From Methylacidiphilum caldifontis (lineage in GTDB: Bacteria > Verrucomicrobiota > Verrucomicrobiia > Methylacidiphilales > CAMAQI01), in NCBI GenBank assembly GCA_945877805.1, contig CAMCSM010000001.1, positions 10,221-74,220 of the forward strand: a DNA stretch of 64,000 bases. The letters are read 5' to 3'. The position numbers and the translations under genes are program-made. Shown piece after piece: positions 12,133 through 58,762 of this stretch (its first letter is position 1; every line of letters starts with the position of its first letter). The notes beneath the pieces are model-generated. The model saw only the letters and a program-made list of their open reading frames with translations, did no database searches and was not told where the DNA came from.

Positions 12133-12150
12133 GAGGTCAATGGCGTAAGG

Positions 12151-12486
12151 TCAAATGAAAAGCTGATTAGACTCACGATGAATCATTCTGTTTGCAGGCG
12201 TTCCGCCAATACTCTCAGGCCGAATAATCTGCTCCAATCCCTCGGAAATCTCGTAGAGCTTGTCCGTCGAGCCCTTCGGCATATGGGGTGCATAAGTCAC
12301 GACCCAAAGACGCCCCGCCCAAGGAACGACCGCCCCCGTACCGCATTCGCCTTCTAAATTAAACATCGTAAGATGCGGATAGATCCCTGAGACGGAGCGA
12401 GGTTCATTTTCGGCAAAAGCCACACTCATCAAAGCGATCAGGGATATTGTCAATAACACTGAGCTTTTTTTCATAGTATTTTTCAT
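12151..12486 (-). CDS. N-terminal fragment (signal peptide plus 111 aa) of the same interrupted protein
   Basis: Signal peptide MKKSSVLLTISLIALMSVAFA. Ends at the TGA (12151-12153), which is in frame with the downstream 689-aa ORF. Confidence 0.6.
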   Translation of the reverse strand: MKNTMKKSSVLLTISLIALMSVAFAENEPRSVSGIYPHLTMFNLEGECGTGAVVPWAGRLWVVTYAPHMPKGSTDKLYEISEGLEQIIRPESIGGTPANRMIHRESNQLFI

Positions 12487-12488
12487 AA

Positions 12489-15176
12489 TTATATTTTTTC
12501 TGAGTTGATCGTTTTCTTTTCCCCATTGACCCGGATACTCACTTGTGACGGCTTAGAGGAGGAGATCCGGTAGGAGATGACCTTTCCATCCTTCCAATCG
12601 ATATCAACAATGAACCCCCCGCGGGCACGGAGCCCCTTAACGCTTCCTGTGGGCCAAGCTTTGGGGAGCGCGGGGAGTAGATGAATTTCATCAAGGTGGC
12701 TCTGGAGGAGCATTTCGCAGACCCCGGCGGTGTATCCAAAGTTACCATCAATCTGGAAAGGAGGACAGGTGTCGAACAGGTTAGGAAGAATGCCATGACG
12801 AAGAAGATCTGACACAAGTTTGTAAGCGCGATCTCCATCCTGTAGGCGAGCCCACAGATTGATCTTGTTAGCAATGCTCCAACCCGTGCTGATATCCCCT
12901 CGTGCATTCAATGAAATCCGTGCCGCTTCAGCAAGTGCCGGCGTCTTTTGCAAGGAGATCTGGCGGCCGGGATAAAGGGCAATTAAGTGGGAAATATGGC
13001 GATGCTTGTTTTCGGGAGTATCGAGGGTCCCCTCATGGGATTTAATCGATTTGAGCTCCTCCTGCCACTCCAGTAATTGCCCCCAGCTGCCGATCTTTGG
13101 TGGAAGGAGATGCGCTTTTTTGTCGACAAGCATCTTGCGGAACTCAGCGTCCACTCCAAGGGCTTCTGAAGCCTCAATGGTGCTATTAAAAAGATCCCAT
13201 ACCCACTGTTGATCAAATGAGATTCCCTCCTGTTTGGGGCCCTGCTCAGGAGAGAGACCCACAGGGGTGACAAGAGTTCCGTCCGGTTTGGTAATCAGGC
13301 TGGCGAGCCAGTATTCACAGACCTCTTTCATGGCGGGGTAGGCCCGGTTACGCAGATACTCTTTATCTCCCGTGTATCGATAATGATCGTAGCTATTTTG
13401 AAGCAGCCAAGCACTAGCGCCCGGCACCCAATCCCAAGTAGATCCGCCAAAAAGCCCGCTCTCACCCTTTATAATCCAACCAGGTTTATTAAATGTTTTC
13501 AGAGTTTCTGCAGTTCGTACTCCGCGGATGGAGTTAATCCAATCGGCATAGGGCTGGAAGCACTCGGAAAGATTCGCCACATCAGTAGGCCAGTAGTTCA
13601 TCTGAACGTTGATGTCGGTGTGATAATCACAGCGCCAAGGCGGCCGATTGGAATTATTCCATTTCCCTTGGAGATTCGCCGGCAAACTGCCTGGTCGTGA
13701 AGAGGAGATCATGAGGTATCGGCCATACTGGAAAAGCAGGGACTCCAAGCCATAGTCCACCGCCCCTGGCTTACCGAGATTGGCCAGTCGGACGTTCGTA
13801 GGCAGCGAGGAATCGCCCGGTCCAATGTCGAGCGTCACTCGTTTGAACAACGACTGATAATCGCGGATATGTTCGGTAAGCAGATCATCCCATGAACGTT
13901 TAAGGGCGGCATCAAGCCTCGCCGTGACTTTGGCGTGCGGAGCTTCGCCTTTCCATCCCTTTCCGCTATCTTGCACAAAATCCGTTCCTGCGCTGAGAAT
14001 AAACGTAATGGAGTCGGCGTTTTTGAAGAGAATATTTCCAGATTTGGTCTCGATGGTACCTCCCTGATTGAGTACCGCCAACTCCGCTTCATAGCTCAGA
14101 GCAATCTTGTACGGCTCAGGTTTTTTGACATACTGGTAACCTTCCAGTGAACCTGAACATACGATACGATTGCCGGATGAGGAAACCGTCCCCTTGTGCA
14201 GATCAAGTCCCTTGTGCGCATCTTGAATCTCCACCATTCCGCTGAGCGAACCAGGCTTGTTGGCGGTGAAACGAAAGACCATAACCTTGGCTGGATAACT
14301 CGCAAATGCCTCACGTTTATATTTTACTCCATCCTTTTCGTAGGTAACCGTATGCAGTGCCCGTTCGATATCAAGCTCACGTCGGTAAACGGACGGTGGT
14401 GATGGTTGTACCGGATTTTTGGGAAGCGAAATGTTTCCGAGTGCGATTTCGGCGATTTGAAAATAGGGATCACCTTGATTTTCCAGAAATTCAAAGCGAT
14501 AATAAGGATAGCTGATTTTATTTTCGAATTGAAAGGATTTCGCTAATTTTCTGGACTCCCACTCGGCGACACCCTTACGTTCATCCAAGATTTTCCAGTT
14601 TTTACCATCCTGCGATCCGAGAAAGCGCCAAGCCTTGGGGTCACGCTTGGGAACGTCTCCTGCTGATGTCAGGCTGTAGCTGGTGATGGCACTATTTTGA
14701 AGTTCCTCTGGAACTTTAGCCTGCCAGATGATAGGGAAAACCCGATTATGCCCGAAACACCATTTTGTATCGGGATTACCGTCGACAGAATCTTGGATCC
14801 CCTGATCGACCGAATCCTTATGATCACTTGTACAACTGACAAAATCCTCAAGCACATTTCCAACATGGACAAAGATATTGCCGAATGCCTGATAGGCCCC
14901 TGTGTCATTCTCATCACCGATCCAAAGGCTTTCTTCGTTAAATTGAATTTGTTCGCGGTCAGCACCGCCAAACAACATGGCCCCCATGAAACCGTTACCG
15001 ATAGGCAAAGCTTCCTGCTCCCATTGCGTGGCGGGCTGGTCATAGCGCAGAACCAATTCACTCGATCTGGCCGGACTGGCTATATCTGACGCTTTGGCCG
15101 TTGATAGGGCAATCAACCCTAAAAACATAAAACGTCTGAAATGGGAGGTTAACATAAAGGTTGAAGTTTCGTTCAT
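12489..15176 (-). CDS. GH95 alpha-L-fucosidase with an inserted F5/8 type C (CBM32-like) domain
   Basis: 895 aa with GH95 blocks EALPIGNGFMGAMLFGG, NLQGKWN and DYHTDINVQMNYWP. A discoidin-like insert (DGNPDTKWC...WRFLGSQDGKNWKILDER) spans about 14426-14864. Confidence 0.85.
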   Translation of the reverse strand: MNETSTFMLTSHFRRFMFLGLIALSTAKASDIASPARSSELVLRYDQPATQWEQEALPIGNGFMGAMLFGGADREQIQFNEESLWIGDENDTGAYQAFGNIFVHVGNVLEDFVSCTSDHKDSVDQGIQDSVDGNPDTKWCFGHNRVFPIIWQAKVPEELQNSAITSYSLTSAGDVPKRDPKAWRFLGSQDGKNWKILDERKGVAEWESRKLAKSFQFENKISYPYYRFEFLENQGDPYFQIAEIALGNISLPKNPVQPSPPSVYRRELDIERALHTVTYEKDGVKYKREAFASYPAKVMVFRFTANKPGSLSGMVEIQDAHKGLDLHKGTVSSSGNRIVCSGSLEGYQYVKKPEPYKIALSYEAELAVLNQGGTIETKSGNILFKNADSITFILSAGTDFVQDSGKGWKGEAPHAKVTARLDAALKRSWDDLLTEHIRDYQSLFKRVTLDIGPGDSSLPTNVRLANLGKPGAVDYGLESLLFQYGRYLMISSSRPGSLPANLQGKWNNSNRPPWRCDYHTDINVQMNYWPTDVANLSECFQPYADWINSIRGVRTAETLKTFNKPGWIIKGESGLFGGSTWDWVPGASAWLLQNSYDHYRYTGDKEYLRNRAYPAMKEVCEYWLASLITKPDGTLVTPVGLSPEQGPKQEGISFDQQWVWDLFNSTIEASEALGVDAEFRKMLVDKKAHLLPPKIGSWGQLLEWQEELKSIKSHEGTLDTPENKHRHISHLIALYPGRQISLQKTPALAEAARISLNARGDISTGWSIANKINLWARLQDGDRAYKLVSDLLRHGILPNLFDTCPPFQIDGNFGYTAGVCEMLLQSHLDEIHLLPALPKAWPTGSVKGLRARGGFIVDIDWKDGKVISYRISSSKPSQVSIRVNGEKKTINSEKI

Positions 15177-15229
15177 AGACTGGCTGCTTGGCTGGTGATC
15201 ACAGATAGTTGAGCTATTATCGATCGTCG

Positions 15230-16723
15230 CTATTTTATCTCGATGGTAAATGGTGAAGCAGGTAGGTTTTTTCGATTCGCTAAGTTAACATCCAGTTCTT
15301 TATGACCCATATCGCGTTCAGATCCATAGCGAACGTAACGGGGCTGAGCATCCCCCCAGGCGCTCAACCACACGTGATCCCCTTCGATCGTCGCCTCCGC
15401 TTTCGTGAATTTTTGATTCTCCCCCGCAACATAAAATCCTCGGAGCCCCTTTTCGTCTATTGATTTGAGACCACTTTTTGCAAAATCAAAATTCAATCGG
15501 ATTTTCCCCTCTTCAAGATGCCCTTCCTTGATCATCGGTCCCGAATAATCCTCCTCCCGATCAATTCCATAAACCAACGCTTTTGCGGCAAGCGCCAATC
15601 TTTCACCTACCGGCTGCTTCGTAGCAGGATGAATGGGGTGATATATGAGATGCGCATTCGTAGGTGGCTTTGGAAGCTCGGACTCCCTTGAAAGATCGAT
15701 GGTAACAGCCATAAAAGAGAATGGAATGGATTGAGCAATTTTTCGCTGCACATCTCGAAATTCGTGCCAAATCGTTTGTTCATAACGCGCCAGTTGAACA
15801 ATATAAAAGGGCATCTTCAAATCATCAAAAAGAGTCCGCCAATCTTCCACCATTGCAGTAAAGAGTTTTTCCTGCTCAGCCCAAGCCCCTGCATTTGCCT
15901 CCCCTTGATACCATATCACACCACGAATGGAGAAAGGGATCACTGTTGTTAACATCCGTTCATAGCAAAAACTCGGAGTAAGTTGATTCATCGCTTTCGC
16001 CGATTCTTGTTTAAAATAAAAAAGCTGATCATAATTAGGAATCTTTTGAAACATCTCGGCACGACACCATGACTCCGTGGTACTTGCACCGCGGGAACAA
16101 TGAATGATGGCGATGGGAATATTAAGCGATTGCCTGAGAGCGTAGGCAAAATGGTAACCAACCGCACTCCACTTTCCCAATACATCACTTTGAGCACTCT
16201 CCCAAGAAGTTCCTAAAGGCCCTCCTTTGGAATCTTTCGCTAAAAGAGCCGTTGATACAGTAAAAAAACGAAGGAGAGGATCAGAAGGCCTTAGCATCGA
16301 CTCCTCTCCCTCTTTCGTCATATCTAACCGCATCTCCATATTGGATTGCCCGGAAGCCAGCCAAACCTCTCCCACCAAGACATTTGAAATCTTCCGTACC
16401 AGCTTTCCTCCTGAAAAAATCTTAATTTCAAGCACTTGTCCCTCCGCTTTTTGAGGAGGAAACTCCACCATCCAACGATTCCCATTGAAAAGAGCGGCTT
16501 TTTTCTCCCCCAAAAACTCCACCTCCACCGACTTTTCGGGATTCCCCTCTCCAAAGACACGGACTGGTTTCTCCTGTTGAATCACCATCCCGTTCGAAAA
16601 TAGATCAGGAATAATAAGCCGATCTATTTCTTGACCTGCAGCAAACTCAAAATAAAAAAACGCTCCAATAACTAAAATCCGAAATAATAATAAAAAATAT
16701 TTACTCATTTGTGGAGACCTCAT
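15230..16723 (-). CDS. sialate O-acetylesterase (SASA family)
   Basis: Contains the VWLASGQSNMEM catalytic block and a signal or TM N-terminus. The track ORF begins at a TTG (16738); the ATG at 16723 or 16708 is more likely. Confidence 0.8.
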   Translation of the reverse strand: MRSPQMSKYFLLLFRILVIGAFFYFEFAAGQEIDRLIIPDLFSNGMVIQQEKPVRVFGEGNPEKSVEVEFLGEKKAALFNGNRWMVEFPPQKAEGQVLEIKIFSGGKLVRKISNVLVGEVWLASGQSNMEMRLDMTKEGEESMLRPSDPLLRFFTVSTALLAKDSKGGPLGTSWESAQSDVLGKWSAVGYHFAYALRQSLNIPIAIIHCSRGASTTESWCRAEMFQKIPNYDQLFYFKQESAKAMNQLTPSFCYERMLTTVIPFSIRGVIWYQGEANAGAWAEQEKLFTAMVEDWRTLFDDLKMPFYIVQLARYEQTIWHEFRDVQRKIAQSIPFSFMAVTIDLSRESELPKPPTNAHLIYHPIHPATKQPVGERLALAAKALVYGIDREEDYSGPMIKEGHLEEGKIRLNFDFAKSGLKSIDEKGLRGFYVAGENQKFTKAEATIEGDHVWLSAWGDAQPRYVRYGSERDMGHKELDVNLANRKNLPASPFTIEIK

Positions 16724-16727
16724 TAAA

Positions 16728-16753
16728 CAATAATACAAGAGCTTGTATTATTG
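16728..16753. promoter_or_regulatory. candidate operator, 26-bp palindrome containing TACAA-N4-TTGTA (site 1)
   Basis: caataatacaag-ag-cttgtattattg has 12-bp perfect arms and lies directly upstream of the esterase-GH95 operon start. Confidence 0.55.
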
Positions 16754-16810
16754 TCAAATTAAAACCGCCTTATCCGATTAATCTTAGAGTAGGCCAGACG
16801 AAGTGATGAG

Positions 16811-19800
16811 CTAATCTGCGACATGCTCAACCTCAAGATCGAGCACTTTTCCGGTCTGTCGATCGATACTCGCATGCACCCAAGCACGTCGCTCTCCATG
16901 AGTCGAGAATCGACCGGTCTCTTTTGATGTTTTTCCCGTCTGACTCACAATATCAACCATGATCTGCCATGTGGAGTTACTGTGACTCTCCACCCACGAT
17001 CTCAGGACCGACTCCGACTCCTGCTTCACTTGAGAAATTGCCCCCCCCTTCTCCTGATCCATTCCGGGAAGTTTTAAGATTTGACTAGCGAAGTCGGAGT
17101 TTCGTTCGATCGATACAATGGTTTTGCTCGACTGCTCCGTAAGCTCCCGGGCTTGTGTAGAACTTAAGACCATCGGCGCCTGAGAGCGATAGTTCATAAA
17201 GGCTCCGGAGAGAATCGCCTGACGAATAGGTAGAGGCGCCTGCACAAAATCAACCCGCCCCGAGGAGATCTCCCCCTCCTCCAAACAAAAGACATCAAGC
17301 AATGGAAGATCCCCGCTCTTGTTGGTGAAAAAATCAAGAGTCTTCCCGGGAAGGTCGCGAAAGACATACCCCAACTCTCCAATCGAACGAAACGGACGGT
17401 TGAGTACCGGCGTTCTTGTCAGAAAATTTCCGGGAATCGTTGGAAAATCAGCATCATTCAAATAAGCAGCATCCCCAGGCCGAAGGATCGACGCCCCACT
17501 GGAGTCAAGTTCTGTATAACGAACGGCACTTGTCGTTCGATTAATCCATACATCTGAAATAGGAGCATTTCTATACCCCGACTTTAAACTGGAATAACTC
17601 CAAGAATTTCGGTTATTGAGCAATCCACTAAAAATATTGTTAACTAGAAAGCCCCAATTGGGCCCCCCATATACCATATCCCAATTGCTGTTGAGATTAT
17701 TTACATCTTTAGTCCATTTAGCCTGACTACGGATCGAAACCCCGGGAGTCGCCCGCGAATCAATGGGTCCCCCACTTGTGGTATTAAGAAAATGCCTATA
17801 TTGAAAACCTAACCGGGATCCCCGAGGGTCTGCTCTCATATAGGAGGCTTTCGCACTTCCTCTTTGCCAAGCACTATAAAAATTTAAAGTCGTTATGTTA
17901 AGGTTATTCACCGCATACTGTGATGAATCTACCGTATCAAAGGTGAAGGCGGTTTGCGGAGAGTCGTGAGCAATTACGCAAAAGGAGTAGTTTGAAAGAG
18001 GTAAATTCGTGACCAGCTCAAATCGTTGATAAGGAACCCATAGTGTTCCTACATAAACACCAAGCTCCATCGTAAAAGGGGTATCACTCGATAAACCGGT
18101 AATCGGCGATATTCTTTGAAATAAGAGACTCGCATAATTTCGATTTTTTAATCCTAAATCTGTCCCTCCTGAGTACGCAACACTCGGAAATGCTCCTGCT
18201 CCAGTTGAGCAGTATCTTCCTATGGCATCTACGGGCTTTCCTGCATTGGGGGCCCCCACCTTGAGAGTAATTGCAGGATCGGGAGTCGTTCGACTGGAAA
18301 TTAAAATCTCATTTTGAGCGTTGGGCGCCGTGCTTGTAGGGAGGCCCGGAAGAGAGCCAAGAACAGCGGGCTCACCAAAGGACTTTGAGCTCGGTAAGGA
18401 AAATGAAACCTGCTTTCCGGCAAAAATTGTTGATGTCGGAACATTAGGGGTCATTCCTGCATTCACCGTTAGGTACCCCCCAGTAGGAAGATTTGCCATA
18501 GCTCCCAACTCCAAATAAGACTGACCCTCGAGTAACTTCACAGATCCCGATGAAATGCTCTCTCCGCGATATCCTTTTAAAACAGAGCATGGATTTTGAT
18601 GGGGATTCCAAAGCTCAAACTGCATCCACGCTTCTGCTGATGAATTATTATTGGGACGTAAAAAATTGTATACAATTTCATTCAGATAAGGAAGATTCTC
18701 CGTTCCAATCGCCAAATTTTGATTCACAGAAGAATAGGTCTGATACCCTGAAGGCCAATTAAGAGCAATCAAGGCCGTTGACGGTTTGATTAAATCCGAA
18801 AAACCAGTCTCCACTATTGTCGGTAAATCATCGGAATCCCATTGATCGATAATATTACATCCGATTTGGAGTAAGTGAAAATCGGTCGATTGATCAATTC
18901 CGTTTCTGAGGGTCACCGTCGTGCCACTCACATAATAACTACACGCAATCCCCCCCGAAACCCCGAGACTTCCGGGAACAATCGTCGCCTTGAGCCATTC
19001 GAAGAAATCGGGCTCTCTTCCTTGACTCATCACCTCCGTCAAACTTTTGATTTTCGTCGCCGGGGTCAAACCGTTCCCCTCGGGAGAAACATAGACAAAC
19101 CGATTTTTTTGGGAATCCCATTTCAATCCAAAATGTTTTAAAATTGCCTTCTCTTTTTTGGAATCGCTGAGGCTTCCATCCGCATTTCTGGAATTAAACC
19201 AATCGAGTCGTGCTAAAGGGAATTTTCGTGCGAAAAAGGGATCCCCCTCCTCCACAACATAAGAATCCAGTGTTCCATCCACACGATAATATTCAAAGGT
19301 CCTCTTTTTTGGCGCCAGATAGGAGGTTTGAGTCAAAAGAGCGAGTTCGGGACGATTCACCGCGCTCGAATGATGTCGAAAATAAGGTTCAACCCCTTCC
19401 CCTTCATTTTCATGAATGAAATTCAAAAGATCCTGACGTCCTAAAAAAATATTCTGACCCTCTTTTAATTTTTCCTGATCCTGATAAAGTACCCCCTGTG
19501 TCGGAGTCCCTGATGAAAAAGACTCTTTCCCATAAAGCCATTTTTCATATTTTTGAGGACTCGATTCATCCGGTAAACGCCACCGGACCGCTTGATCTCC
19601 GATTTTCGAGGCCCTCTCCGAAATTTGAGTTAAATCCGCGCAGATCGTCCGTCCTCTGTACATATCGTAGCGATAGCTTTTATTCGCTTCCGGGTAGTGA
19701 GGATCGGGTCCATCCCCAAGCCTGTTAAATCCTTCCGGTTTTCCGCAAATATTCAGATCCAAAAGCCCATTCACTTGGTAGGCTAAGTAAGCATAACGAC

Positions 19801-20365
19801 TTATGGAAGAGTTCTCTTTTTTATTATCCGCATCGATCCATTCCGGAAGTTCATCTTGCGATAACGGTTCTTTAAAAAAAAGGGGCTTGTTCCAGAGCTT
19901 TGCACTGACAGAGCGTCCATTCTCCTGATCATCTGAAATTCCTCCCTTTGCCTCTTTTCCCTGTTCCTCAAAAAAACCTCCCTCCAAGAAAGAATCAGAC
20001 GAATTCGGAATGATCGGTATCGGAAAAGAAGAACTGCGGCGTAGGTAACACAATTTATCGCTATTTTGAGTAGGACTCGATAGACTGTTCAACCCCCACT
20101 TGGCAGGAGAGAGCGAGAGCGATTCCCCTCTGTTTTTTCGCCGCGACACTTCTCTCGCCTCGTTCTGGAGTTCCGCAATGACTTGGTCCACCGCCATACG
20201 CTCCGATTCATACCCCACCACCTGATCAGAATACGAGTACGCCATTGAATAATCAGCTTGAGAGCGGATACTCCACAGCACCAAAGTTCCCGTCAATAGA
20301 GAACTAAAAATGAGAACAAGAATAAGGGCAAACCCTTTTCTTTTTAAATAATTATGCTTTCTCAT
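16811..20365 (-). CDS. giant GspK-like pseudopilin-family protein (resembles Verru_Chthon cassette protein A)
   Basis: 1184 aa. The N-terminus RKGFALILVLIFSSLLTGTL is a pseudopilin-type hydrophobic segment lacking the Glu at +5, as in GspK. The rest has no recognisable domain. Divergent from the prepilin-type genes. Confidence 0.6.
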   Translation of the reverse strand: MRKHNYLKRKGFALILVLIFSSLLTGTLVLWSIRSQADYSMAYSYSDQVVGYESERMAVDQVIAELQNEAREVSRRKNRGESLSLSPAKWGLNSLSSPTQNSDKLCYLRRSSSFPIPIIPNSSDSFLEGGFFEEQGKEAKGGISDDQENGRSVSAKLWNKPLFFKEPLSQDELPEWIDADNKKENSSISRYAYLAYQVNGLLDLNICGKPEGFNRLGDGPDPHYPEANKSYRYDMYRGRTICADLTQISERASKIGDQAVRWRLPDESSPQKYEKWLYGKESFSSGTPTQGVLYQDQEKLKEGQNIFLGRQDLLNFIHENEGEGVEPYFRHHSSAVNRPELALLTQTSYLAPKKRTFEYYRVDGTLDSYVVEEGDPFFARKFPLARLDWFNSRNADGSLSDSKKEKAILKHFGLKWDSQKNRFVYVSPEGNGLTPATKIKSLTEVMSQGREPDFFEWLKATIVPGSLGVSGGIACSYYVSGTTVTLRNGIDQSTDFHLLQIGCNIIDQWDSDDLPTIVETGFSDLIKPSTALIALNWPSGYQTYSSVNQNLAIGTENLPYLNEIVYNFLRPNNNSSAEAWMQFELWNPHQNPCSVLKGYRGESISSGSVKLLEGQSYLELGAMANLPTGGYLTVNAGMTPNVPTSTIFAGKQVSFSLPSSKSFGEPAVLGSLPGLPTSTAPNAQNEILISSRTTPDPAITLKVGAPNAGKPVDAIGRYCSTGAGAFPSVAYSGGTDLGLKNRNYASLLFQRISPITGLSSDTPFTMELGVYVGTLWVPYQRFELVTNLPLSNYSFCVIAHDSPQTAFTFDTVDSSQYAVNNLNITTLNFYSAWQRGSAKASYMRADPRGSRLGFQYRHFLNTTSGGPIDSRATPGVSIRSQAKWTKDVNNLNSNWDMVYGGPNWGFLVNNIFSGLLNNRNSWSYSSLKSGYRNAPISDVWINRTTSAVRYTELDSSGASILRPGDAAYLNDADFPTIPGNFLTRTPVLNRPFRSIGELGYVFRDLPGKTLDFFTNKSGDLPLLDVFCLEEGEISSGRVDFVQAPLPIRQAILSGAFMNYRSQAPMVLSSTQARELTEQSSKTIVSIERNSDFASQILKLPGMDQEKGGAISQVKQESESVLRSWVESHSNSTWQIMVDIVSQTGKTSKETGRFSTHGERRAWVHASIDRQTGKVLDLEVEHVAD

Positions 20366-20413
20366 TTTGAATTTATTGAATATAATCTAACTCCAAAAAT
20401 GTTCAAGCATCAA

Positions 20414-20431
20414 AATACAAGGGATTGTAAT
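20414..20431. promoter_or_regulatory. candidate operator TACAA-GGGA-TTGTA (site 2)
   Basis: aatacaagggattgtaat lies in the 113-bp divergent region between the 1184-aa gene and the pseudopilin operon. Confidence 0.5.
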
Positions 20432-20478
20432 ATTCATATTGATTCTTTTACAGAAAGCCTTATATTCTAAATCACACT

Positions 20479-20949
20479 ATGAAGGTAAGAAAAAATACCG
20501 CTTTTAGTCTCTTGGAATCGATATTTGCCATCGCCCTTCTCACCTTCATCCTGCCTGCACTATTGGTATTAATAACCCTCAATCTCAAATCGAACGAAGA
20601 TAGTAGTTCCAAGAAGGATGCCGCCAACATGACGACTCTTTTGATCACCGCGCGAAGGGTGATCCCCCTCGACCGTCACGCCCTCTGCCTGCCCGCACTC
20701 TCCACCCTCAGTCCCGGTCAAGAGCTTTCGGAGACGTTTAATATTGATTCAGATGGCCAGAAAATTCCAAATGAAAAAAAGTTCCGTCTCACCTACAATA
20801 TTCTCCGGGATGAGAAGTTGACCAATCTTTATCGGCTTCATCTGAAGCTCAAATGGCCTGCGACACCCCTTGAAAGTAAGCGTGATAAAAATGAATTTGA
20901 AATCAAGACCTCGATTCGTCTTGATGAGTGGACGGATTCCTCAACATGA
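20479..20949 (+). CDS. prepilin-type N-terminal domain protein (pseudopilin-like)
   Basis: 156 aa. The N-terminus KNTAFSLLESIFAIALLTF has the [AG]F[ST]LxE methylation-site pattern followed by a hydrophobic helix. Confidence 0.65.
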   Translation: MKVRKNTAFSLLESIFAIALLTFILPALLVLITLNLKSNEDSSSKKDAANMTTLLITARRVIPLDRHALCLPALSTLSPGQELSETFNIDSDGQKIPNEKKFRLTYNILRDEKLTNLYRLHLKLKWPATPLESKRDKNEFEIKTSIRLDEWTDSST

Positions 20950-21836
20950 GCTTCATCCATCACAATTCACGGACTTCATTTTGTAGACCATTTTTTACTC
21001 CAAATTGTCGATCCGGTTTTACTTTGATCGAACTGCTCGTCTCTTCCGTCATCGTCATGATTCTTGTCTTGATTTTGGGTGGAATTTCAAGCCTGGTGCT
21101 CCATCAGTCTTCACTTTCTTACAATAGGATCAGCAATTCTAGTAAAATGAGAATTATCTTTCAACTCATTGCCCGTGATCTTGAGAAGGCAGTGATTCGT
21201 CCGGATCTCGCAAAATTTGTCGATTCGAACGGGAACTCCTCACTGACTTTTTACTCTCAAATTCGATCCTATGAAAATAAACAAGTGAAAGGGGATCTGC
21301 GCAACTTGAGTCTGATCTCCTATTCTTGGAGTTCTGAGGATCAAAATCTCAAGAGGATCATCCAAGGGATTGGACGTGAAAACCAAGTGGATTTACTTCC
21401 CTTTAACCAAATAACTCGAACTCCCGACCTTGATCTTCAAAACACAGAGGAGATCGCCTCTGCGGTCATTGATTTTCAATGGTCTTTTTTAAATCCAACA
21501 GGAATGACTTCGGACTATTCTCTCAACCCCCTTTCCCGGGCAGTAAGAGTGACGGCGGCGGTCATCGATCAATCGATGCTTCAAAAAATTTCTCAGAACC
21601 CCTCTTTCGAAGAGCTCAAGACCAAGTTTCACGAAGCCACGCAGCGTAAAAGCAAGTCCAACGATCTGGATCATCTGAGCCTCCTTGCCGAATGGGAGAA
21701 AATAATCGATGACCCTTCCTTAATTCGCTCTTTTCCTGTCGATTTCAGAAGATCGATCACCCTCATGGAACGATTTTACGAGATTCCCTATAACCCAAAA
21801 TATAGCCAGACCGACTTTTCAAACTCCCAAAATTAA
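20946..21836 (+). CDS. prepilin-type N-terminal cleavage/methylation domain protein
   Basis: Carries the classic SGFTLIELLVSSVIVMILV motif. The ATG at 20946 overlaps the upstream TGA (ATGA coupling). The track ORF starts 18 nt earlier. Confidence 0.75.
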   Translation: MSFIHHNSRTSFCRPFFTPNCRSGFTLIELLVSSVIVMILVLILGGISSLVLHQSSLSYNRISNSSKMRIIFQLIARDLEKAVIRPDLAKFVDSNGNSSLTFYSQIRSYENKQVKGDLRNLSLISYSWSSEDQNLKRIIQGIGRENQVDLLPFNQITRTPDLDLQNTEEIASAVIDFQWSFLNPTGMTSDYSLNPLSRAVRVTAAVIDQSMLQKISQNPSFEELKTKFHEATQRKSKSNDLDHLSLLAEWEKIIDDPSLIRSFPVDFRRSITLMERFYEIPYNPKYSQTDFSNSQN

Positions 21837-21854
21837 CAATAGGAAAGACCTGTC

Positions 21855-22607
21855 ATGAAAACATCTCCAATTCAAATTTTATCCTTTTATTATTTAACCC
21901 TCCTTCTCCTTTGCTTTTCCTTACCAGTTCAAAGTCAGGAATGGCAAAAAGTCCTTATTCCCGACGATCAGTCCGTACAGAGACTTAATCAGAACCCGAA
22001 ACTCACTTCCTTGGAGTTAGTCGACGACCCCGAAGATCCCCTTGGAAAGTGTTTTCGTCTGAAAGCACTTCTAACAAGTTGGGGAATGATCAACGCCAGC
22101 TTTCCTGAGATTAAAAAAAATAGTGTCGGAACTCTTTGCTTTAAAATCAGAATAGAACCCGCTGAATCTACAGACAAAACCTTCATTCGATTCGCATTTA
22201 GTTCTAAACCAAATATGCAATGGGGAAACGCGGCAGATCAAGAGTTAGGCTTGCTGCTTACAAATGGCTCATTGGAGATATTAAAAATGAAAAAAAAGAT
22301 TTCCCTCCCCGTAAAGCATTGGATCCGAATGTGGTATGTCTTAAAAAACGGAGACGGCGAAAACCTTCCATTTATCTCCCATTTCACTTTTTTAACAGAT
22401 GAAGTCGATCTCCCTACGTCAAAACCGGAAGAGAAGATTCTCAATGACCCCCCTAGAGAAAAAGAAGGAGTCACAGGCTTCTCCATTCCGGAAATGGGCT
22501 TCTATGTACTCTCCCCTGAAATGGAGCCGTTTGAAGGGCGAGCCGCTCTTTATATCTCAGACCTCTATTTCTCGGATGGTGAAAACCTGACAGTGCCGCA
22601 AAAGTAG
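21855..22607 (+). CDS. secreted hypothetical protein, third gene of the pseudopilin operon
   Basis: 250 aa with a signal peptide (ILSFYYLTLLLLCFSLPVQSQ) and no known motif. Confidence 0.55.
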   Translation: MKTSPIQILSFYYLTLLLLCFSLPVQSQEWQKVLIPDDQSVQRLNQNPKLTSLELVDDPEDPLGKCFRLKALLTSWGMINASFPEIKKNSVGTLCFKIRIEPAESTDKTFIRFAFSSKPNMQWGNAADQELGLLLTNGSLEILKMKKKISLPVKHWIRMWYVLKNGDGENLPFISHFTFLTDEVDLPTSKPEEKILNDPPREKEGVTGFSIPEMGFYVLSPEMEPFEGRAALYISDLYFSDGENLTVPQK

Positions 22608-22716: not shown

Positions 22717-25700
22717 TCATACCCCCAACAATCGTTGATACCATCTCTTTAAAATTTGATTCGCCTCAGACTCCTGTTTTCGGGGGTCGGTCAAATTTCC
22801 GACCTCCTGCGGATTTTTTAAATCCGTCGTATTGATTTCATAGGTCTTTGTTTTGAGATCATAATCTTGACTCATCCGATATTGATATTGATCCAAACTC
22901 CCAGAGTCTAACGATGAATTTAAAACAAGAGGCGGACTCGCAGATAAATTCCCCGTGTTCACAAAAATCGGCTCCGGAAGCGTCTTGGAGAGTGTCGATT
23001 CCGAGGTACTTCCCCCACTCTTCGATTGAAGTTTTTGAAAAGCCGGGGAACTACTCGGATTAAAGATTGTCTTTAGGGTTCCGTTCACAAATTGAAAACG
23101 ATAGTTCAGGTCACTCGCTCCCGTTCCATTCGAGAGAACAATCGGTGAGGTGACACTATTTGCCGCAGAGAAGGTTCCCAAGGTTCCTTGAAAGGCATTC
23201 GCTTGGGTGTCTGTCCCAAGAAGTCCTGAGGGGTCGGAGTAGGTAAAGTTGGGGTTCGCCTCTCCATAATTTTTTTGTGCGTCATTCGCGGTGAAGGTCA
23301 AGGTCGCTGCGGTTGCAAAAACAAAGCGATTTCCTGTTTGCGTGATGCTTGTCGGGGCAAGGGTGTCGTAGGTTCCATTGTAAAGATACTTGGAACTCAA
23401 TCCGTTGAGGGTCGCTAAGGGAGTGGCTCCATTAACCGTAATATCTGTAGCGGTGCCATTGGCCGCATCAGGAACATAAACGAGCCATTTCCCCGTTCCG
23501 GAAACCGCTAGGGCTCCCGCCCCTACGGCGTTGGAAAAAGCCCCCGTCGCAAGAACAAGGTTTTTGTTCGCGCTCGCGGTTTGAATTCCATTCACCGTAA
23601 TTCCGGAAGCCCCGCTTCCGGTGTTGAGCACGGTGACGCCATCAGTCCAAGTCGTCGCCCGAAGATCGACTGCCCCAGTTCCCGTTGTTTTTCCGATCAC
23701 AATCCCTGAGTTACCGGCGGTGATCGTCGCCAGATCGGTCGAACTTAAATTAAAATCTCCCGTCGCTCCGGTATTGACTCCGATCGTCGTACTATTATTC
23801 ACCGGTTGAAGATTCACTTTACCGGTCGTTTGAATGCTTAGATTGGCAAGGGAGATCGAATCGTTCGCCGCTGTCGCCGTATTCGCAATTAAAGTGATAT
23901 CCCCTGTCGCAGAGGCCCCACCGATCACATTCGCCCCCGTAACCACTTGCAAACCCGGTGCCGTTCCCGCCGATCTTCCCGTGATGGCGATCGTTCCCGC
24001 TCCCGTCGAGCTCACCATTCCACCATTGTAGAGATTGAACCCATAATTATTCGTCGTCGATCCCCCCCCTGTCCCATCAATCGTCACCGCTCCTGTTGTC
24101 GTTGAAATAAAGGTCGTTGCTCCCCCATTGCCATCGATAAAGACCCCATAATTATCATTCGTTCCCGTGGTACTCCCCGCTCCCGTCAACGTTATTTTTG
24201 CCCCCGCCGTGGAGGTGATCTCCGCCCCATTATAAAGCCTAATTCCATGATTGCTTGTGGTTGCTCCCCCACCTGTTCCATTCAAGGCGATTGCTCCCGT
24301 TGCTGAAGTCACTAAAGTATTTGCCGATTCCAAGAAGATCCCCAAATTATTTGAGCTCGTGGCATTTCCTCCAGTTCCATTCAAAGTAATGGCACCCGTT
24401 CCTGAGGATTGAATTTTGGAGGCGCTGAGAAGATAAATACCATAATTTGTGCTAGTCCCTCTCCCACCTGTTCCATTAATCGTGATAGAAGCGGTTCCCG
24501 TCGAAAAAATCCCTTCATTTGACATCCAGATTCCCGGATTTTGAAAGGTCGCGCTAGTGTTTGTAGTTCCGGTACCATTAAGGGTAATATCCCCATTAAC
24601 TGAGGAGATAAGCGAACTCGCAGACCCACCTCCATTAAAATAAATCCCAAAATTATTAAAGGTGGTCCCAGCGGAGCCTGCAGTGCCGTTGAGAGTGATT
24701 TTAGCACTTCCTGTCGATGTGATCTGAACCGATGGATTAAAATTGATCCCTATTGCACTCCCTCCAGTTCCATTGCCAGTACCCTCAATTAAAATATTTC
24801 CCGTGACGGAGGTGATGATTGTCCCCGCAGATCCAATTTTAAACCCTACATTATCGGTACTTGATCCATTGCCTCCGGTTCCTCTTAAAGATATGGCTCC
24901 AGTTCCAGAAGACTGGATGAGACTGCTGCCAATCATATTGATTCCATAATTACTCGTCGTCCCCGCACCGCCGGTTCCTGTGATTGAAATCGCTCCGGTT
25001 CCTGTCGATATCACTTGAGAGCTAGCTCTAAGCTCAACGCCATATGCCGCCGTTGTCCCCGCAGCTCCCGTTCCCGTGATGTTGATCGTTCCATTGCTTG
25101 ACTGAACGGTCCCCTTATTGAGTCGGACTCCATACAAATTCGTCGTCGAAGGGGCAACCCCGGTCAACGTAATATTCCCCGCTCCAGTGCTCATCGTTGC
25201 TGTGGTGGTCCCCCCGCCGATCAGGATACTGCCAACAGTCGTTCCTCCATAAGCTCCCGCCGTGACACTGATCGCCCCCCCATTCGTGGTAATACTCGAT
25301 CCATCGCTCATCGTAAAAAGCGCATCCCCTGCCGTTCTCTGTCCTGCCTGCGCACCGACATCATTAATCGTTGCGATGTAACTTCCTCCATTGAGGGTCA
25401 ACGCAATATTGCTATTGAATGTGATACTTCGACCTGCATTCGTCGTCAGACTCCGATTCAGATACGTCGCCCCGCTGGCATCGACATTATTGACAAAGGT
25501 AATATCGGTATTGGCTTGAAGAGTCACATTTCCAGTTGAAAGCAGCGACAGGAGATCGGTTGAGGTGATATAACTATTTTCTGCCACGTTATCGGTAAAT
25601 TGATCCAGATCACTAGCCAGAGTCCGATTGGTATAGGCTCCAGGATTGGCATTACTAATTTGTAAATTCTGCGGATCTAGAAGCAAACTTCCGTTGCCCC

Positions 25701-26880: not shown

Positions 26881-26957
26881 AAAAAAACTACCTAAATATA
26901 ATACATTTTTTCAGCTCGATTACAAGTATTTTCGCTATTGCGTAATAAAAATTTTGA

Positions 26958-53848: not shown

Positions 53849-53866
53849 ATTACAAGCGTTTGCAAT
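53849..53866. promoter_or_regulatory. degenerate operator TACAA-GCGT-TTGCA (site 6) in the GH38/lacI divergent promoter
   Basis: attacaagcgtttgcaat matches 9 of 10 core positions and has a central CG. Confidence 0.45.
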
Positions 53867-53912
53867 TAAAAGGATTGAGTTTCTGACTTAGTGGGCTTAA
53901 AATACAACCGCT

Positions 53913-54920
53913 ATGAATAAAATTACTCTCATTGATGTTGCCCGTTTTTGTCATGTGGACATCTCCACCGCATCACGGGCGCTACGCTCCGATCCCCGAG
54001 TAAAATCAAAAACCCAGGAGCTTGTCAAAAAAGCCGCAAACCGATTGGGGTATCGGCCCAATCTTCTCGCCAAAAGTCTTGCGGGCGGAAAAACCAATAC
54101 CTTATGGGTCATCCTCCCCTCGATCGATTCCATCGTCGATGCCAAACTCGTTCACGAGATCAGTCGTTACGCCAATTCTCTGGATTACTCCCTCTTTGCC
54201 GCATTTCACGACTCTGAGGAATTTGGAGTATCCAAAGGAAATCCGATCGACCACTACGTAAAAATTGTTGACTCCGCCTGCCAGGGCCTTGTCGATGGGG
54301 CAATCGTTCTTCCGCGTCGATTCGCCGATGATTCGGATATTTTAAACACCTTTGTCAAAAATGAATTCCCCTTTGTCTTCGTTGATAACTATCTGGAGGG
54401 TGTTCCAACCTCGGTTGCGATGACCGATCAGAAACAGGCCACGGAAAGCTTGATCCAACACTGTCTGCAGGCAGGAGCCAAAGAGTTCATCCTTCTTTTT
54501 GGAAACGACACTAATCCCGTGGAGTCGCGGCGCCTAACCTCTTCTCGCGATTATCTGATTCGCCAACGAATTCCCTTCACGGAGATCTGCGAAATCCAAA
54601 AAACGTGGAAACCGAAAAAAAAGGGTTCCCCCGCCCTGGCCGTCCTCGGTTCTTCACAAGCGATCTTTCATACCTATCTTGCTGAACACTTCTCACCATT
54701 TCTTCAACATAAACTCGTTTTTGGGGTCTTTGATGAGTGGATCGGAGAACCGTCCCCCGCCCAAAAAGTTTTTGTCGGAATTCAAAACAGTGAAAAGTTG
54801 GCAAAGGAGGCCGTCGATCTTTTGATTAAAAAAATCCAAAGAAAGAACAAATCCCCAAAAGAGATCAAACGAATCCCCTTGGTCGAATGTCGCGCCATTC
54901 TCCCCTCCATTCGGTGCTAA
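53913..54920 (+). CDS. LacI family transcriptional regulator
   Basis: 335 aa with the N-terminal HTH ITLIDVARFCHVDISTASRALR and a periplasmic-binding-protein-like C-terminal domain. Confidence 0.9.
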   Translation: MNKITLIDVARFCHVDISTASRALRSDPRVKSKTQELVKKAANRLGYRPNLLAKSLAGGKTNTLWVILPSIDSIVDAKLVHEISRYANSLDYSLFAAFHDSEEFGVSKGNPIDHYVKIVDSACQGLVDGAIVLPRRFADDSDILNTFVKNEFPFVFVDNYLEGVPTSVAMTDQKQATESLIQHCLQAGAKEFILLFGNDTNPVESRRLTSSRDYLIRQRIPFTEICEIQKTWKPKKKGSPALAVLGSSQAIFHTYLAEHFSPFLQHKLVFGVFDEWIGEPSPAQKVFVGIQNSEKLAKEAVDLLIKKIQRKNKSPKEIKRIPLVECRAILPSIRC

Positions 54921-55134
54921 TTCACCATAGCATGTAAGTTCCTCATAAGGAAAATGATATGCAATTCACGATGACCTCCTGTTGAAATCCTCATTAATTT
55001 CGCTGACTCGCTGCGCCGCGGCGGGAAACTGTGACTTTCAAATTCCGTTCATCTGTATTTTATCGATAGAATAAGTTGTCTTTGCTCTCATTTTTGCCCT
55101 TGCACTCAACCTCAACGCAAATTATCTTAAAGGC

Positions 55135-55350
55135 ATGAGTATCGCAGAGATTAGACAACTGCCTCAAAAGGAGAAATTCCTCATCATGGAGGCTCTCTGG
55201 TCTGATTTGATTTCCCCAGAAGAAAATTTTGAAGCCCCATCATGGCACGCCCTCGAACTCCAAAAAACGGAGCAGGAGTTAAAACAAGGTCTTATCCAAT
55301 CCATGGATTGGGACCTCGCCAAAAAGAACCTCTTGAAACGTTTTGAGTGA
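55135..55350 (+). CDS. addiction-module antitoxin (putative addiction module component family)
   Basis: 71 aa beginning MSIAEIRQLPQKEKFLIMEALWSDL. Its stop overlaps the toxin start (GTGA). Confidence 0.75.
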   Translation: MSIAEIRQLPQKEKFLIMEALWSDLISPEENFEAPSWHALELQKTEQELKQGLIQSMDWDLAKKNLLKRFE

Positions 55351-56903: not shown

Positions 56904-56910
56904 TGTATGT

Positions 56911-57834: not shown

Positions 57835-57893
57835 AGCTTAGATAGAGCATTGGTGCGGCGTTAGTCCAGTAGCATTTATGCTCCCTTAGGGAG

Positions 57894-58748: not shown

Positions 58749-58762
58749 TTAAATTTCCAAAA

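What the first reader, a model, noticed from the sequence alone, without database searches (positions are those of the whole stretch)
16811..22607. Divergent pseudopilin cassette (giant GspK-like protein, two prepilin-type proteins and a secreted protein) with no secretion ATPase or secretin in the window
The 1184-aa protein starts with a pseudopilin-like hydrophobic segment that lacks the Glu at +5 (KGFALILVLIFSSLL), as GspK does. The 156-aa protein (AFSLLESIFAIALL) and the 297-aa protein (GFTLIELLV) carry prepilin cleavage/methylation motifs and are translationally coupled by an ATGA overlap. The composition recalls the TIGRFAMs-defined Verru_Chthon cassette, with a large protein A plus prepilin-type proteins B, C and D. 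The function of that cassette is, to my knowledge, unknown. Here the large gene is divergent rather than co-oriented, no D-like gene is evident, and the cassette carries the shared glycan-regulon operator in its promoter. This suggests a pseudopilus-like surface or secretion device dedicated to glycan foraging.
Basis: partly seen in the sequence, partly recalled or inferred. Interest (0 to 1): 0.6.

Follow-up and report, generated by a model that had tools for sequence, protein, structure and literature searches.

The report
Glycan-regulated pilus-tip genes, giant GspK-like protein
A freshwater Verrucomicrobium carries three genes for the starter (tip) complex of a pilus-like filament, one of them a giant 1184-residue relative of the tip protein GspK. 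They are wired into the same sugar-degradation regulon as the neighbouring enzymes and belong to a large, unstudied, phylum-wide gene-cassette family.

Summary
All four ORFs, the prepilin motifs, the ATGA overlap, the divergent layout and the lack of an ATPase or secretin are as described. The "glycan operator" TACAA-N4-TTGTA is real: 6 sites against about 1 expected.

- The 1184-aa protein is a remote GspK/PilK homologue. The N-terminal helix matches at hhalign 95% and a second collinear block, residues 989-1055, at 84-92%. About 900 residues are inserted, with no Pfam domain, no PDB sequence relative and no PDB Foldseek match.
- The 156-aa and 296-aa proteins are the I-like and J-like partners.
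- It is not a TIGRFAM Verru_Chthon cassette. All scores fall far below the cut-offs, and a genuine Verru_Chthon cassette sits beside one of "our" type in another genome.
- It belongs to an unmodelled sister family: 4860 clusters, and 409 genomic loci of which all 79 returned are Verrucomicrobiota, with several copies per genome.
- The family's usual order is H/G-like, I-like, J-like, giant K-like, then a secreted ~240-aa protein.
- The window copy is a stripped, rearranged form. Only I, J and K remain, the I-J pair is inverted, and the 250-aa protein is a lineage-specific add-on.

Most likely it primes and caps a type IV filament built by machinery encoded elsewhere. It is co-induced with fucosidase, sialate-esterase, galactosidase, mannosidase and sulfatase genes. 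That function is inferred, not shown.

The parts
16811..20365 (-). Gene A: a 1184-aa giant GspK/PilK-like minor (pseudo)pilin, the apical tip subunit
   Evidence: ORF. Homologues hit GspK and Verru_Chthon_A over the N-terminal ~65 residues only. hhalign against a GspK profile gives two collinear blocks. The AF2 model has pLDDT 77 and pTM 0.86. There is no Pfam, NCBIfam, PHROG or PDB match. dN/dS is 0.16 in the diverged 5' part.
20132..20365 (-). Codons 1-78 of A: class III-type leader (RKG|FALILVL, no Glu+5) and a long alpha-1 helix
   Evidence: The model has a helix at residues 5-78. hhalign maps residues 5-73 to GspK 1-69 with probability 94.8% and E 5.5e-8.
17201..17401 (-). Codons 989-1055 of A: a block homologous to the second half of the GspK alpha-domain (NRPFRSIGELGYV...LLDVFC...GRVDFVQ...IRQAILSG)
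   Evidence: With the N-terminal helix removed, hhalign gives probability 84-92% and E 7e-7 to 8e-6 against E. coli GspK 179-237. This is the most conserved part of the family.
17546..18568 (-). Codons ~600-940 of A: a variable, beta-rich insert, the candidate ligand-specific module
   Evidence: It has the highest column entropy (2.7-3.2) and the lowest occupancy (0.3-0.7) across 123 family members. The model is beta-rich there and pLDDT is low.
16823..16972 (-). Codons 1132-1181 of A: three long C-terminal beta-strands, nearly invariant in the family (in-cis closing strands of the pilin sheet, inferred)
   Evidence: Model strands at 1132-1146, 1153-1168 and 1174-1181 have pLDDT 84-95. Column entropy is lowest there. 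The in-cis concept comes from PMC13533445.
20366..20478 (.). 113-nt divergent control region between A and B
   Evidence: Promoter-like hexamers 20406->20379 (-) and 20439->20466 (+) flank the operator. These are consensus matches only.
20416..20429 (.). Operator palindrome TACAAGGGATTGTA, centred in the control region (about 50 nt from each start codon)
   Evidence: 6 sites against 0.99 expected. It is kept as TACAAGTGCTTGTA in strain L008 inside a stretch of ~70% identity.
20479..20949 (+). Gene B: a 156-aa GspI/PilI-like minor pseudopilin (TA|FSLLE)
   Evidence: It is 27% identical over its full length to the 152-aa gene in the co-oriented cassette of L002 (E 6e-16). NCBIfam hits are weak: ComGE 3e-6 and Verru_Chthon B 0.016. 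A family member hits XpsI at 7e-8. Local hhalign gives GspI and GspJ about 55% each.
20946..21836 (+). Gene C: a 296-aa GspJ/PilJ-like minor pseudopilin (SG|FTLIE), coupled to B by an ATGA overlap
   Evidence: Pfam N_methyl scores 30.4 bits, above the 21.2 cut-off. It is 26% identical to the 260-aa gene of L002 (E 4e-15). The family profile's best match is GspJ, at 96.3% and E 1.7e-9 over 68 columns. The overlap is seen.
21855..22607 (+). 250-aa secreted protein, probably co-transcribed with B and C. It is lineage-specific and not a conserved cassette component.
   Evidence: It has no Pfam, NCBIfam, PHROG or PDB hit. It was found only in near-identical strains. It does not match the family's E protein.
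16730..16757 (-). Strong promoter-like site (TTGACA-16-TATTAT) overlapping a second operator copy (16734-16747), ahead of the SASA esterase / GH95 operon just downstream of A
   Evidence: The gene families are given.
12489..16738 (-). Co-oriented downstream genes: a SASA-family carbohydrate esterase (15230-16738) and a GH95 glycoside hydrolase (12489-15176)
   Evidence: Pfam SASA at 3e-17. GH95 domains are precomputed on the contig.
53851..54920 (+). Candidate regulator: a LacI-family gene (53913-54920) with an operator copy (53851-64, 1 mismatch) between it and the GH38 gene
19400..20600 (.). Recombination patch covering the 5' third of A, the control region and the first ~40 codons of B
   Evidence: Identity to strain L008 is 70-85% here and 99.5-100% elsewhere. 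dS is 0.64 against 0.005 in the flanks.

Best explanation
Genes B (I-like), C (J-like) and A (giant K-like) encode the minimal I-J-K tip-initiation ("licensing") trimer of a type IV filament.

**Proposed steps**
- A prepilin peptidase encoded elsewhere would cleave them.
- The three proteins would assemble in the inner membrane.
- The trimer would prime polymerisation of a major (pseudo)pilin on a PilB/GspE-type machine encoded elsewhere.
- It would stay at the filament apex.

**The giant subunit**
- A keeps the GspK scaffold: an alpha-1 helix lacking Glu5, part of the alpha-domain, and C-terminal strands supplied in cis.
- About 900 extra residues are inserted into that scaffold.
- The variable beta-rich part of the insert (residues ~600-940) would be displayed at the tip.

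**Regulation**
- Both divergent promoters share one centrally placed TACAA-N4-TTGTA operator, probably bound by the LacI-family protein at 53913-54920.
- The same operator precedes the SASA/GH95, sulfatase, GH35 and GH38 genes.
- The tip would therefore be made when the cognate glycan is sensed.

**Proposed role**
I think the most likely role is a substrate-induced tip adhesin or receptor that tethers the cell to a glycan or glycan-rich particle.

**Shown and inferred**
- Shown: homology, family anatomy, operator enrichment and conservation, and purifying selection.
- Inferred: filament incorporation, tip location, the repressor's identity and glycan binding.
For: **GspK homology.** There are two collinear blocks. 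N-terminal GspK HMM hits occur in 10 of 16 and 14 of 39 relatives. Two further collinear motif matches are individually non-significant.

**I-like and J-like partners.** B and C are full-length homologues of the genes that directly precede the giant gene in other loci. The C family's best match is GspJ.

**Family order.** The order D-B-C-A mirrors gspH-I-J-K.

**Model.** A confident model (pTM 0.86) has a 74-residue N-terminal helix and conserved C-terminal strands.

**Published framework.** The I-J-K trimer licenses assembly, and K homologues can carry large insertions with the last strand supplied in cis, as in CpaL and ComZ (PMC13533445).

**Regulation.** The operator is enriched, centred in the control region, and conserved across a diverged allele.

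**Selection.** dN/dS is 0.16.

**Neighbourhoods.** Of 91 neighbouring genes in related loci, the most frequent Pfam families include sulfatases, GH35, SASA, BNR sialidase-type, GH36-type and GH10 enzymes, plus LacI and GntR regulators.

**Machinery link.** One related cassette sits beside a PilB/GspE-type ATPase together with MglA-like and MglB genes.
Against: - The window protein itself matches no Pfam or NCBIfam model.
- Foldseek of the model finds no GspK or any other PDB fold (best E 0.47).
- Only 1 of 39 relatives touches Pfam T2SSK (E 0.002).
- The globular parts of B and C have no detectable relative among solved structures.
- The window copy lacks the H/G-like D gene and the secreted E gene that most cassettes have.
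- No prepilin peptidase, ATPase, platform protein, secretin or major pilin could be checked in this genome.
- The CAZyme-rich neighbourhood has no background control.
- No carbohydrate-binding domain was recognised in A.
Confidence: 0.55

Rival explanations
1. A type II secretion pseudopilus tip that sets cargo specificity. The same I-J-K trimer primes a periplasmic pseudopilus. The giant K-like protein recognises and pushes the co-regulated, signal-peptide-bearing enzymes (SASA esterase, GH95 and others) through a secretin encoded elsewhere.
For: The detectable homology is to T2SS GspK, GspJ and XpsI models. The family gene order equals gspH-I-J-K. The co-regulated neighbours carry Sec signal peptides (read). 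The operator is shared with those enzymes.
Against: A 130-kDa cap with a hypervariable module resembles known tip adhesins (PilY1, MshQ, CpaL) more than a piston tip. Several paralogous cassettes per genome would imply many alternative pistons. The one machinery gene found next to a cassette scores slightly better as PilB than as GspE, and it lies with MglA/MglB-type genes. None of this is decisive.
Confidence: 0.2
2. Not filament subunits. The prepilin-like N-termini serve only as an export or anchor signal, and A, B and C are membrane-anchored periplasmic or surface proteins of the glycan regulon, for example a binding or sensor complex. From my own recollection, not checked here, prepilin-type N-termini are unusually common in Planctomycetes-Verrucomicrobia proteins.
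For: The body of A has no recognisable pilin or GspK fold by Foldseek. B scores below the N_methyl cut-off and has Ala at -1. Cassettes are almost never beside assembly machinery.
Against: There is a specific second block of GspK homology far from the N-terminus. Glu5 is absent only in the K-like protein, while the I-like and J-like proteins keep it. The H/I/J/K-like order is conserved. The C-terminal strands are nearly invariant, as a tip-complex subunit would require.
Confidence: 0.15
3. A decaying remnant. A rearranged cassette that has lost its D and E genes is no longer functional.
For: It is the only one of about 75 loci with B and C inverted relative to A. It lacks D and E.
Against: All three ORFs are intact. 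The window protein carries every family-invariant residue. dN/dS is 0.16 over a patch with dS 0.64. The layout and operator are kept in independent strains. I, J and K are the minimal licensing set in the published model.
Confidence: 0.05

Closest known systems
T2SS minor pseudopilin tip complex GspH-GspI-GspJ-GspK (e.g. E. coli gspHIJK)
   Same: K-like N-terminus without Glu5. Remote but collinear homology of A to GspK in two blocks. C is closest to GspJ. The family gene order H/G-like, I-like, J-like, K-like matches gspH-I-J-K.
   Different: A is 1184 aa against ~330 aa. It fails all GspK HMMs, and Foldseek finds no GspK structure. The cassette is not embedded in a gsp operon. There are several cassettes per genome. 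In the window the H-like gene is missing and the I-J pair is inverted.
TIGRFAM/NCBIfam 'Verru_Chthon cassette' (proteins A TIGR02600, B TIGR02598, C TIGR02599, D TIGR02596)
   Same: Same phylum and same logic: a giant protein with a GspK-like N-terminus plus three prepilin-type proteins. The window's B and C have weak N-terminal hits to models B and C, and relatives' D proteins to model D. The function is likewise unknown, and no paper in the library mentions it.
   Different: All scores are far below the cut-offs. The bodies of the two giant proteins are not alignable. The order in the one genuine example (L046) is B-C-A-D, against D-B-C-A-E here. Both types occur in tandem in L046, so they are distinct paralogous systems.
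PilK-family tip subunits with large insertions and an in-cis closing strand: Caulobacter CpaL/TadG (~600 aa), Thermus ComZ
   Same: A minor-pilin-like scaffold interrupted by a large functional insert, with a conserved extreme C-terminus. It acts with an I-J pair (PMC13533445).
   Different: No sequence relationship was detected. The insert here is about twice as large. The family is multi-copy and lies among CAZyme genes. The topology of the insertion could not be verified, because no model coordinates are returned.
T4aP minor-pilin/PilY1 sets (Myxococcus xanthus has several alternative sets) and Vibrio MshQ
   Same: Several paralogous tip-complex gene sets per genome appear to serve machinery encoded elsewhere. 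A large (~1100-1200 aa) protein sits at the tip (abstracts listed; PMC13533445).
   Different: PilY1 and MshQ are non-pilin proteins that donate a strand in trans. Here the giant protein is itself the K-like pilin. The secreted ~240-aa E protein of the canonical cassette has no PilY1 counterpart and is absent from the window.

Membership tests
Verru_Chthon cassette protein A (TIGR02600) | Whole-protein HMM score of at least 332.3 bits | tested here: not met
   The window protein has no hit at E<=1. Of 39 family members, 25 hit, but the best E-value is only 1.3e-9; in the members inspected individually the match is N-terminal only. A true member, L046 10714-14616, scores 936 bits. hhalign of that member against our family aligns 65 N-terminal residues only.
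Verru_Chthon cassette proteins B and C (TIGR02598, TIGR02599) | HMM scores of at least 51.4 and 256.5 bits | tested here: not met
   15.4 bits for the 156-aa protein and 31.9 bits for the 296-aa protein, the latter over the N-terminal 75 residues only.
Verru_Chthon cassette (whole) | Four co-oriented genes including a D-type prepilin protein; the order is B-C-A-D in the one genuine example found here (L046) | tested here: not met
   The window has only two prepilin-motif ORFs. B and C are divergent from A. The related family's order is D-B-C-A-E, against B-C-A-D in L046.
T2SS minor pseudopilin GspK (NF037980; Pfam T2SSK_1st PF21687 and T2SSK PF03934) | HMM match above cut-off covering the pilin domain and alpha-domain | tested here: not met
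   The window protein has no hit. Relatives hit NF037980 at 18-29 bits against a cut-off of 130, over the N-terminus only. 1 of 39 hits PF03934 at E 0.002.
GspK/PilK superfamily (remote homology) | Class III leader with hydrophobic alpha-1 lacking Glu at +5 | tested here: met
   RKG|FALILVL is read from the sequence. The family consensus is RxG|xALVIVLA. hhalign against a GspK profile gives 94.8% and E 5.5e-8.
GspK/PilK superfamily (remote homology) | Similarity beyond the N-terminal helix, collinear with GspK | tested here: met
   Residues 989-1055 match GspK 179-237 at probability 84-92% and E 7e-7 to 8e-6 with the helix removed. Two further collinear motif matches have E 0.14-0.33 and are not significant alone.
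GspK/PilK superfamily (remote homology) | Structural similarity of the model to solved GspK | tested here: not met
I-J-K tip-initiation complex of type IV filaments | The K-like gene is accompanied by I-like and J-like minor pilin genes carrying Glu5 | tested here: met
   B is FSLLE and C is FTLIE. Both are homologous to the genes directly upstream of the giant gene in other loci. The C family's best match is GspJ. The assignment of B to GspI is weak, at about 55%.
I-J-K tip-initiation complex of type IV filaments | Physical trimer formation and the last beta-strand of K closing its pilin sheet | not testable with these tools
   No multimer prediction is offered and no model coordinates are returned. 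Only the secondary structure is available, with strands at 1132-1181.
Type IV filament system (T2SS or T4P) in this genome | Prepilin peptidase, extension ATPase, platform protein, secretin and major (pseudo)pilin present | not testable with these tools
   The Pfam gene calls for positions 4.4-77 kb of the contig list none. The rest of the MAG could not be searched. In about 80 related loci, only one GspE/PilB-type ATPase and one weak secretin lie nearby.
LacI-type regulon | Shared palindromic operator upstream of regulon genes, and a LacI-family gene with its own site | tested here: met
   6 sites against 0.99 expected; five lie in intergenic regions and the sixth lies 81 nt upstream of the GH35 start. 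The LacI-family protein is confirmed. The site is conserved in a diverged allele. Binding itself was not tested.

The most novel reading that the evidence does not exclude
Verrucomicrobiota carry a library of interchangeable, substrate-induced filament tips. Each D-B-C-A-E-type cassette encodes an I-J-K starter complex whose giant K-like subunit displays a different variable module. Each cassette is switched on by the local sugar regulator together with the matching degradative enzymes. A single pilus or pseudopilus machine would then be re-tipped to capture, or to secrete enzymes against, the glycan currently available. This would be a functional counterpart of the surface glycan-binding proteins of Bacteroidota polysaccharide-utilisation loci. 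The window locus would be the clearest case, with a minimal I-J-K set under a glycan operator.
Probability: 0.2. Interest if true: 0.85.

Novelty: new variant of a known kind. Interest (0 to 1): 0.55.

Why it matters
Tip-initiation complexes decide whether and with what "head" a type IV filament is built. Here the head is a 130-kDa protein of a family with thousands of members, no domain model, no solved relative and no literature. It is present in several copies per genome in a phylum known for polysaccharide degradation.

The window supplies a concrete regulatory link. One operator is shared with fucosidase, sialate-esterase, galactosidase, mannosidase and sulfatase genes. That link turns the long-standing "function unknown" of the Verru_Chthon-type cassettes into testable hypotheses about glycan-induced adhesion or secretion.

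The window copy also offers a natural minimal I-J-K set with which to test the recent licensing model of filament assembly.

Tried and rejected
1. **Direct HMM scans.** NCBIfam, Pfam and PHROGs gave nothing for the 1184-aa and 250-aa proteins.
2. **First AlphaFold run.** With 8 sequences it was unusable (pLDDT 36.6). The second run, with 66 sequences, was good.
4. **PDB sequence searches.** Profiles of the A, B and C families gave nothing beyond pilin N-terminal helices.
5. **Word-indexed homologue searches.** These returned only 16 and 12 relatives and wrongly suggested a rare family. The exhaustive profile search corrected this to 4860.
6. **Iterated B, C and D profiles.** They drifted into one another through the shared helix. 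I therefore used only first-round profiles and the best-scoring class.
7. **The 250-aa protein as the family's secreted E protein.** Rejected: no HMM hit with --max, and hhalign probability 0.2%.
8. **An inverted repeat as the trace of the B-C inversion.** The 13-nt pair 20372-84 / 22632-44 flanks the block, but it is one of 19 similar chance-level pairs.
9. **Sigma-70-type promoter and terminator scans.** The counts are not above shuffles (13 against 8.7, and 8 against 7.7). I used them only descriptively.
10. **By-eye GspK motifs.** I first placed the GspK "FxSxxEL...L.P.vtv" motif at residues ~306-340. hhalign put it at 989-1055 instead.

Full report
**1. Observation**

The four ORFs are at the coordinates given:
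- 16811-20365(-), 1184 aa
- 20479-20949(+), 156 aa
- 20946-21836(+), 296 aa from the ATG that overlaps the preceding stop as ATGA
- 21855-22607(+), 250 aa, with a Sec-type signal peptide

The N-termini read RKG|FALILVL (no Glu at +5), TA|FSLLE and SG|FTLIE. A six-frame motif scan finds these two prepilin motifs and no other in the 64-kb window.

The source contig is an 83.9-kb ENA metagenome contig. Its gene calls with precomputed Pfam cover positions 4.4-77 kb. They show no GspD/E/F, PilB/C/Q or prepilin peptidase.

The best genomic match is a freshwater MAG deposited as "Methylacidiphilum sp. Phi" MaE-09apr19-199, at 93-100% identity. An independent contig of that MAG has the same divergent layout.

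**2. The operator**

The palindrome TACAA-N4-TTGTA occurs six times against 0.99 expected, and none of 100 shuffles reaches six. The sites and what they precede:

| Site | Position relative to genes |
|---|---|
| 16734 | inside a strong promoter-like site ahead of the SASA esterase / GH95 operon |
| 20416 | centred in the 113-nt region between A and B, about 50 nt from each start |
| 34177 | ahead of a 1238-aa protein plus a sulfatase |
| 39875 | ahead of a 1093-aa protein plus an AraC-type gene |
| 42219 | ahead of GH35 |
| 53851 | between GH38 and a LacI-family gene |

In the second strain, the ~1.2 kb around the A/B control region is only 70-85% identical. The operator survives there as TACAAGTGCTTGTA, with conserved flanks. 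The LacI-family protein is the obvious candidate binder, by inference.

**3. What the giant protein is**

Direct scans of the 1184-aa protein give nothing in NCBIfam, Pfam or PHROGs.

The word-indexed search found only 16 relatives. An exhaustive profile search found 4860 cluster representatives at E<=1e-3, and 1682 at E<=1e-30.

A genome scan found 409 loci. All 79 returned come from Verrucomicrobiota: Chthoniobacterales, Methylacidiphilales, Terrimicrobiaceae, Akkermansiaceae and Luteolibacter. There are several copies per genome. Among the 79 loci alone, one closed Chthoniobacteraceae genome has at least 4 and one Methylacidiphilales MAG has at least 8.

Relatives hit the GspK and Verru_Chthon_A models, but only over their first ~65 residues and far below the cut-offs.

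Profile-profile comparison with a 40-sequence GspK alignment gave two results:
- Residues 5-73 align to GspK 1-69 at 94.8% probability.
- With that helix removed, residues 989-1055 align to GspK 179-237, the second half of the alpha-domain, at 84-92%.

Two more collinear motif matches are the top local hits but are not significant alone:
- YQVNGLLDLN against RDAQHCFNLN
- IIDQWDSDDLPT against IADYIDVDDSPR

A 66-sequence AlphaFold model is confident overall (pLDDT 77, pTM 0.86). Its main features:
- a 74-residue N-terminal helix
- a well-predicted alpha/beta region
- a poorly predicted beta-rich middle
- three long C-terminal strands

Conservation across 123 members mirrors this. The residues 1-80, 161-200, 441-520, 961-1040 and 1121-1184 are conserved, and 600-940 is variable.

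Foldseek against the PDB finds nothing (best E 0.47), and no PDB sequence matches the profile. A is therefore a remote GspK/PilK homologue with about 900 residues of novel inserted structure.

**4. The partners and the family's anatomy**

B and C are full-length homologues (27% and 26% identity) of the two genes that directly precede the giant gene in a Verrucomicrobium MAG.

I scripted a context analysis of about 75 loci. The usual order it shows:
- D: ~230-350 aa, closest to GspG/GspH
- B: ~150-190 aa, with weak XpsI/GspI hits
- C: ~260-370 aa, best match GspJ at 96%
- A: the giant gene
- E: in 51 cases, a ~220-280-aa signal-peptide protein whose start overlaps A's stop

The order is the gspH-I-J-K order.

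The window is the only locus in which B and C lie on the opposite strand from A. It has no D and no E.

The 250-aa protein is not E, and I found it only in near-identical strains.

Assembly machinery is almost never adjacent. Across about 80 loci there is one PilB/GspE-type ATPase, which lies next to MglA-like and MglB genes, and one weak secretin hit.

**5. Relation to the Verru_Chthon cassette**

In locus L046 a genuine cassette passes all four cut-offs, in the order B-C-A-D:

| Protein | Score (bits) |
|---|---|
| B | 56.8 |
| C | 334 |
| A | 936 |
| D | 127 |

It lies immediately after a cassette of "our" type. The two giant proteins align only over 65 N-terminal residues.

The window locus therefore belongs to a sister cassette family without any curated model, and not to the TIGRFAM family. 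No paper in the searchable library mentions "Verru_Chthon", and none pairs Verrucomicrobiota with GspK.

**6. Is it functional?**

Between the window and the second strain, the 5' 330 codons of A differ with dS 0.64 and dN/dS 0.16. The rest of A has dS 0.005.

A diverged allele was thus imported by recombination across the A/B control region. It has been under purifying selection. This argues against a decaying remnant.

**7. Mechanism**

A 2026 study (PMC13533445) makes three relevant points:
- A PilI-PilJ dimer recognises a folded PilK-family subunit to form the trimer that licenses type IV filament assembly.
- The closing beta-strand of K is supplied either in trans (PilY1/PilC, probably MshQ) or in cis (GspK, CpaL, ComZ).
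- In-cis K homologues can carry very large insertions.

The window's gene set is exactly I-like, J-like and K-like. Its giant K keeps a nearly invariant C-terminal strand set.

I therefore propose that A, B and C prime and cap a filament built by machinery encoded elsewhere. They would be co-induced with glycan-degrading enzymes through the shared operator. The variable 600-940 module would act as a tip-displayed binding surface.

- Shown: homology, anatomy, operator statistics and conservation, and selection.
- Inferred: assembly into a filament, tip location, regulator identity and the ligand.

There are three rival explanations:
- a T2SS piston tip that specifies secretion of the co-regulated enzymes
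- non-filament membrane-anchored proteins
- a remnant

The neighbourhoods of related cassettes contain many sulfatases, GH35, SASA, BNR, GH36-type and GH10 enzymes, plus LacI and GntR regulators. I had no genome background to test enrichment.

**8. Verdict**

This is a new variant of a known kind. It is an I-J-K tip-initiation module with an exceptionally large, structurally novel K-like subunit, from a big uncharacterised Verrucomicrobial cassette family. Here it takes an unusual minimal, inverted form under a glycan-regulon operator.

Interest is moderate to high. The function is not demonstrated, but the locus makes the old "function unknown" of these cassettes directly testable.

Noticed in passing
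window 19400-20600: A ~1.2-kb patch is only 70-85% identical to a second strain (L008) that is otherwise 99.5-100% identical. The patch covers the 5' third of the giant gene, the control region and the first ~40 codons of the 156-aa gene. dS is 0.64 against 0.005 in the flanks, and dN/dS is 0.16. This looks like an allele imported by recombination.
   Followed up: yes
window 10063-12486 (-): A 111-aa signal-peptide ORF (12151-12486) and the 689-aa ORF (10063-12132) are in the same frame. A single TGA plus six codons separates them. This could be a split gene, a pseudogene, a sequencing error or a recoding event. Neither part has a Pfam or NCBIfam hit.
   Followed up: partly
window 22717-28796: A two-partner secretion pair lies directly beside the cassette: a 1387-aa TpsA-like protein (TPS and MBG_2 domains, minus strand) and a divergent ShlB/TpsB transporter of 612 aa.
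   Followed up: no
window 30394-34110 and 36556-39837 (-): Two large proteins (1238 and 1093 aa) have no Pfam or NCBIfam hit. Each is preceded by the same TACAA-N4-TTGTA operator. They are followed by a sulfatase gene and an AraC-type regulator gene respectively. They are likely unknown members of the glycan regulon.
   Followed up: partly
window ~55000-62000: This stretch has low GC (0.39-0.41). It carries a large serine recombinase (60081-61742), an HTH_3 protein and an Unstab_antitox gene. It is probably an integrated mobile element.
   Followed up: no
51 related loci, e.g. L003 13430-14176, L084 13426-14136: Canonical cassettes of this family carry a fifth gene. It encodes a ~220-280-aa signal-peptide protein, and its start overlaps the stop of the giant gene by 4 or 8 nt. 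It has no Pfam domain and is absent from the window.
   Followed up: partly
L046 4631-15254: A cassette of this family (giant gene plus E) is followed in tandem by a genuine Verru_Chthon B-C-A-D cassette that passes all four NCBIfam cut-offs. The two cassette types are distinct and can coexist.
   Followed up: yes
L042 298-13342: This is the only related locus with assembly machinery nearby. It has a PilB/GspE-type ATPase (641 and 619 bits) with an MshE-like c-di-GMP-binding N-terminus. Beside it lie an MglA-like small GTPase and MglB, all divergent from the cassette.
   Followed up: partly
window 34670-35347 (-): A 225-aa protein has weak C-terminal matches to PEP-CTERM sorting-signal families (E 3e-4 to 6e-3).
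   Followed up: no
L008/L009 (source MAG): The MAG is deposited as "Methylacidiphilum sp.", but this contig is dominated by glycoside hydrolases, sulfatases and sugar regulators. It looks like a heterotrophic glycan degrader, so the taxonomic label may be imprecise.
   Followed up: no
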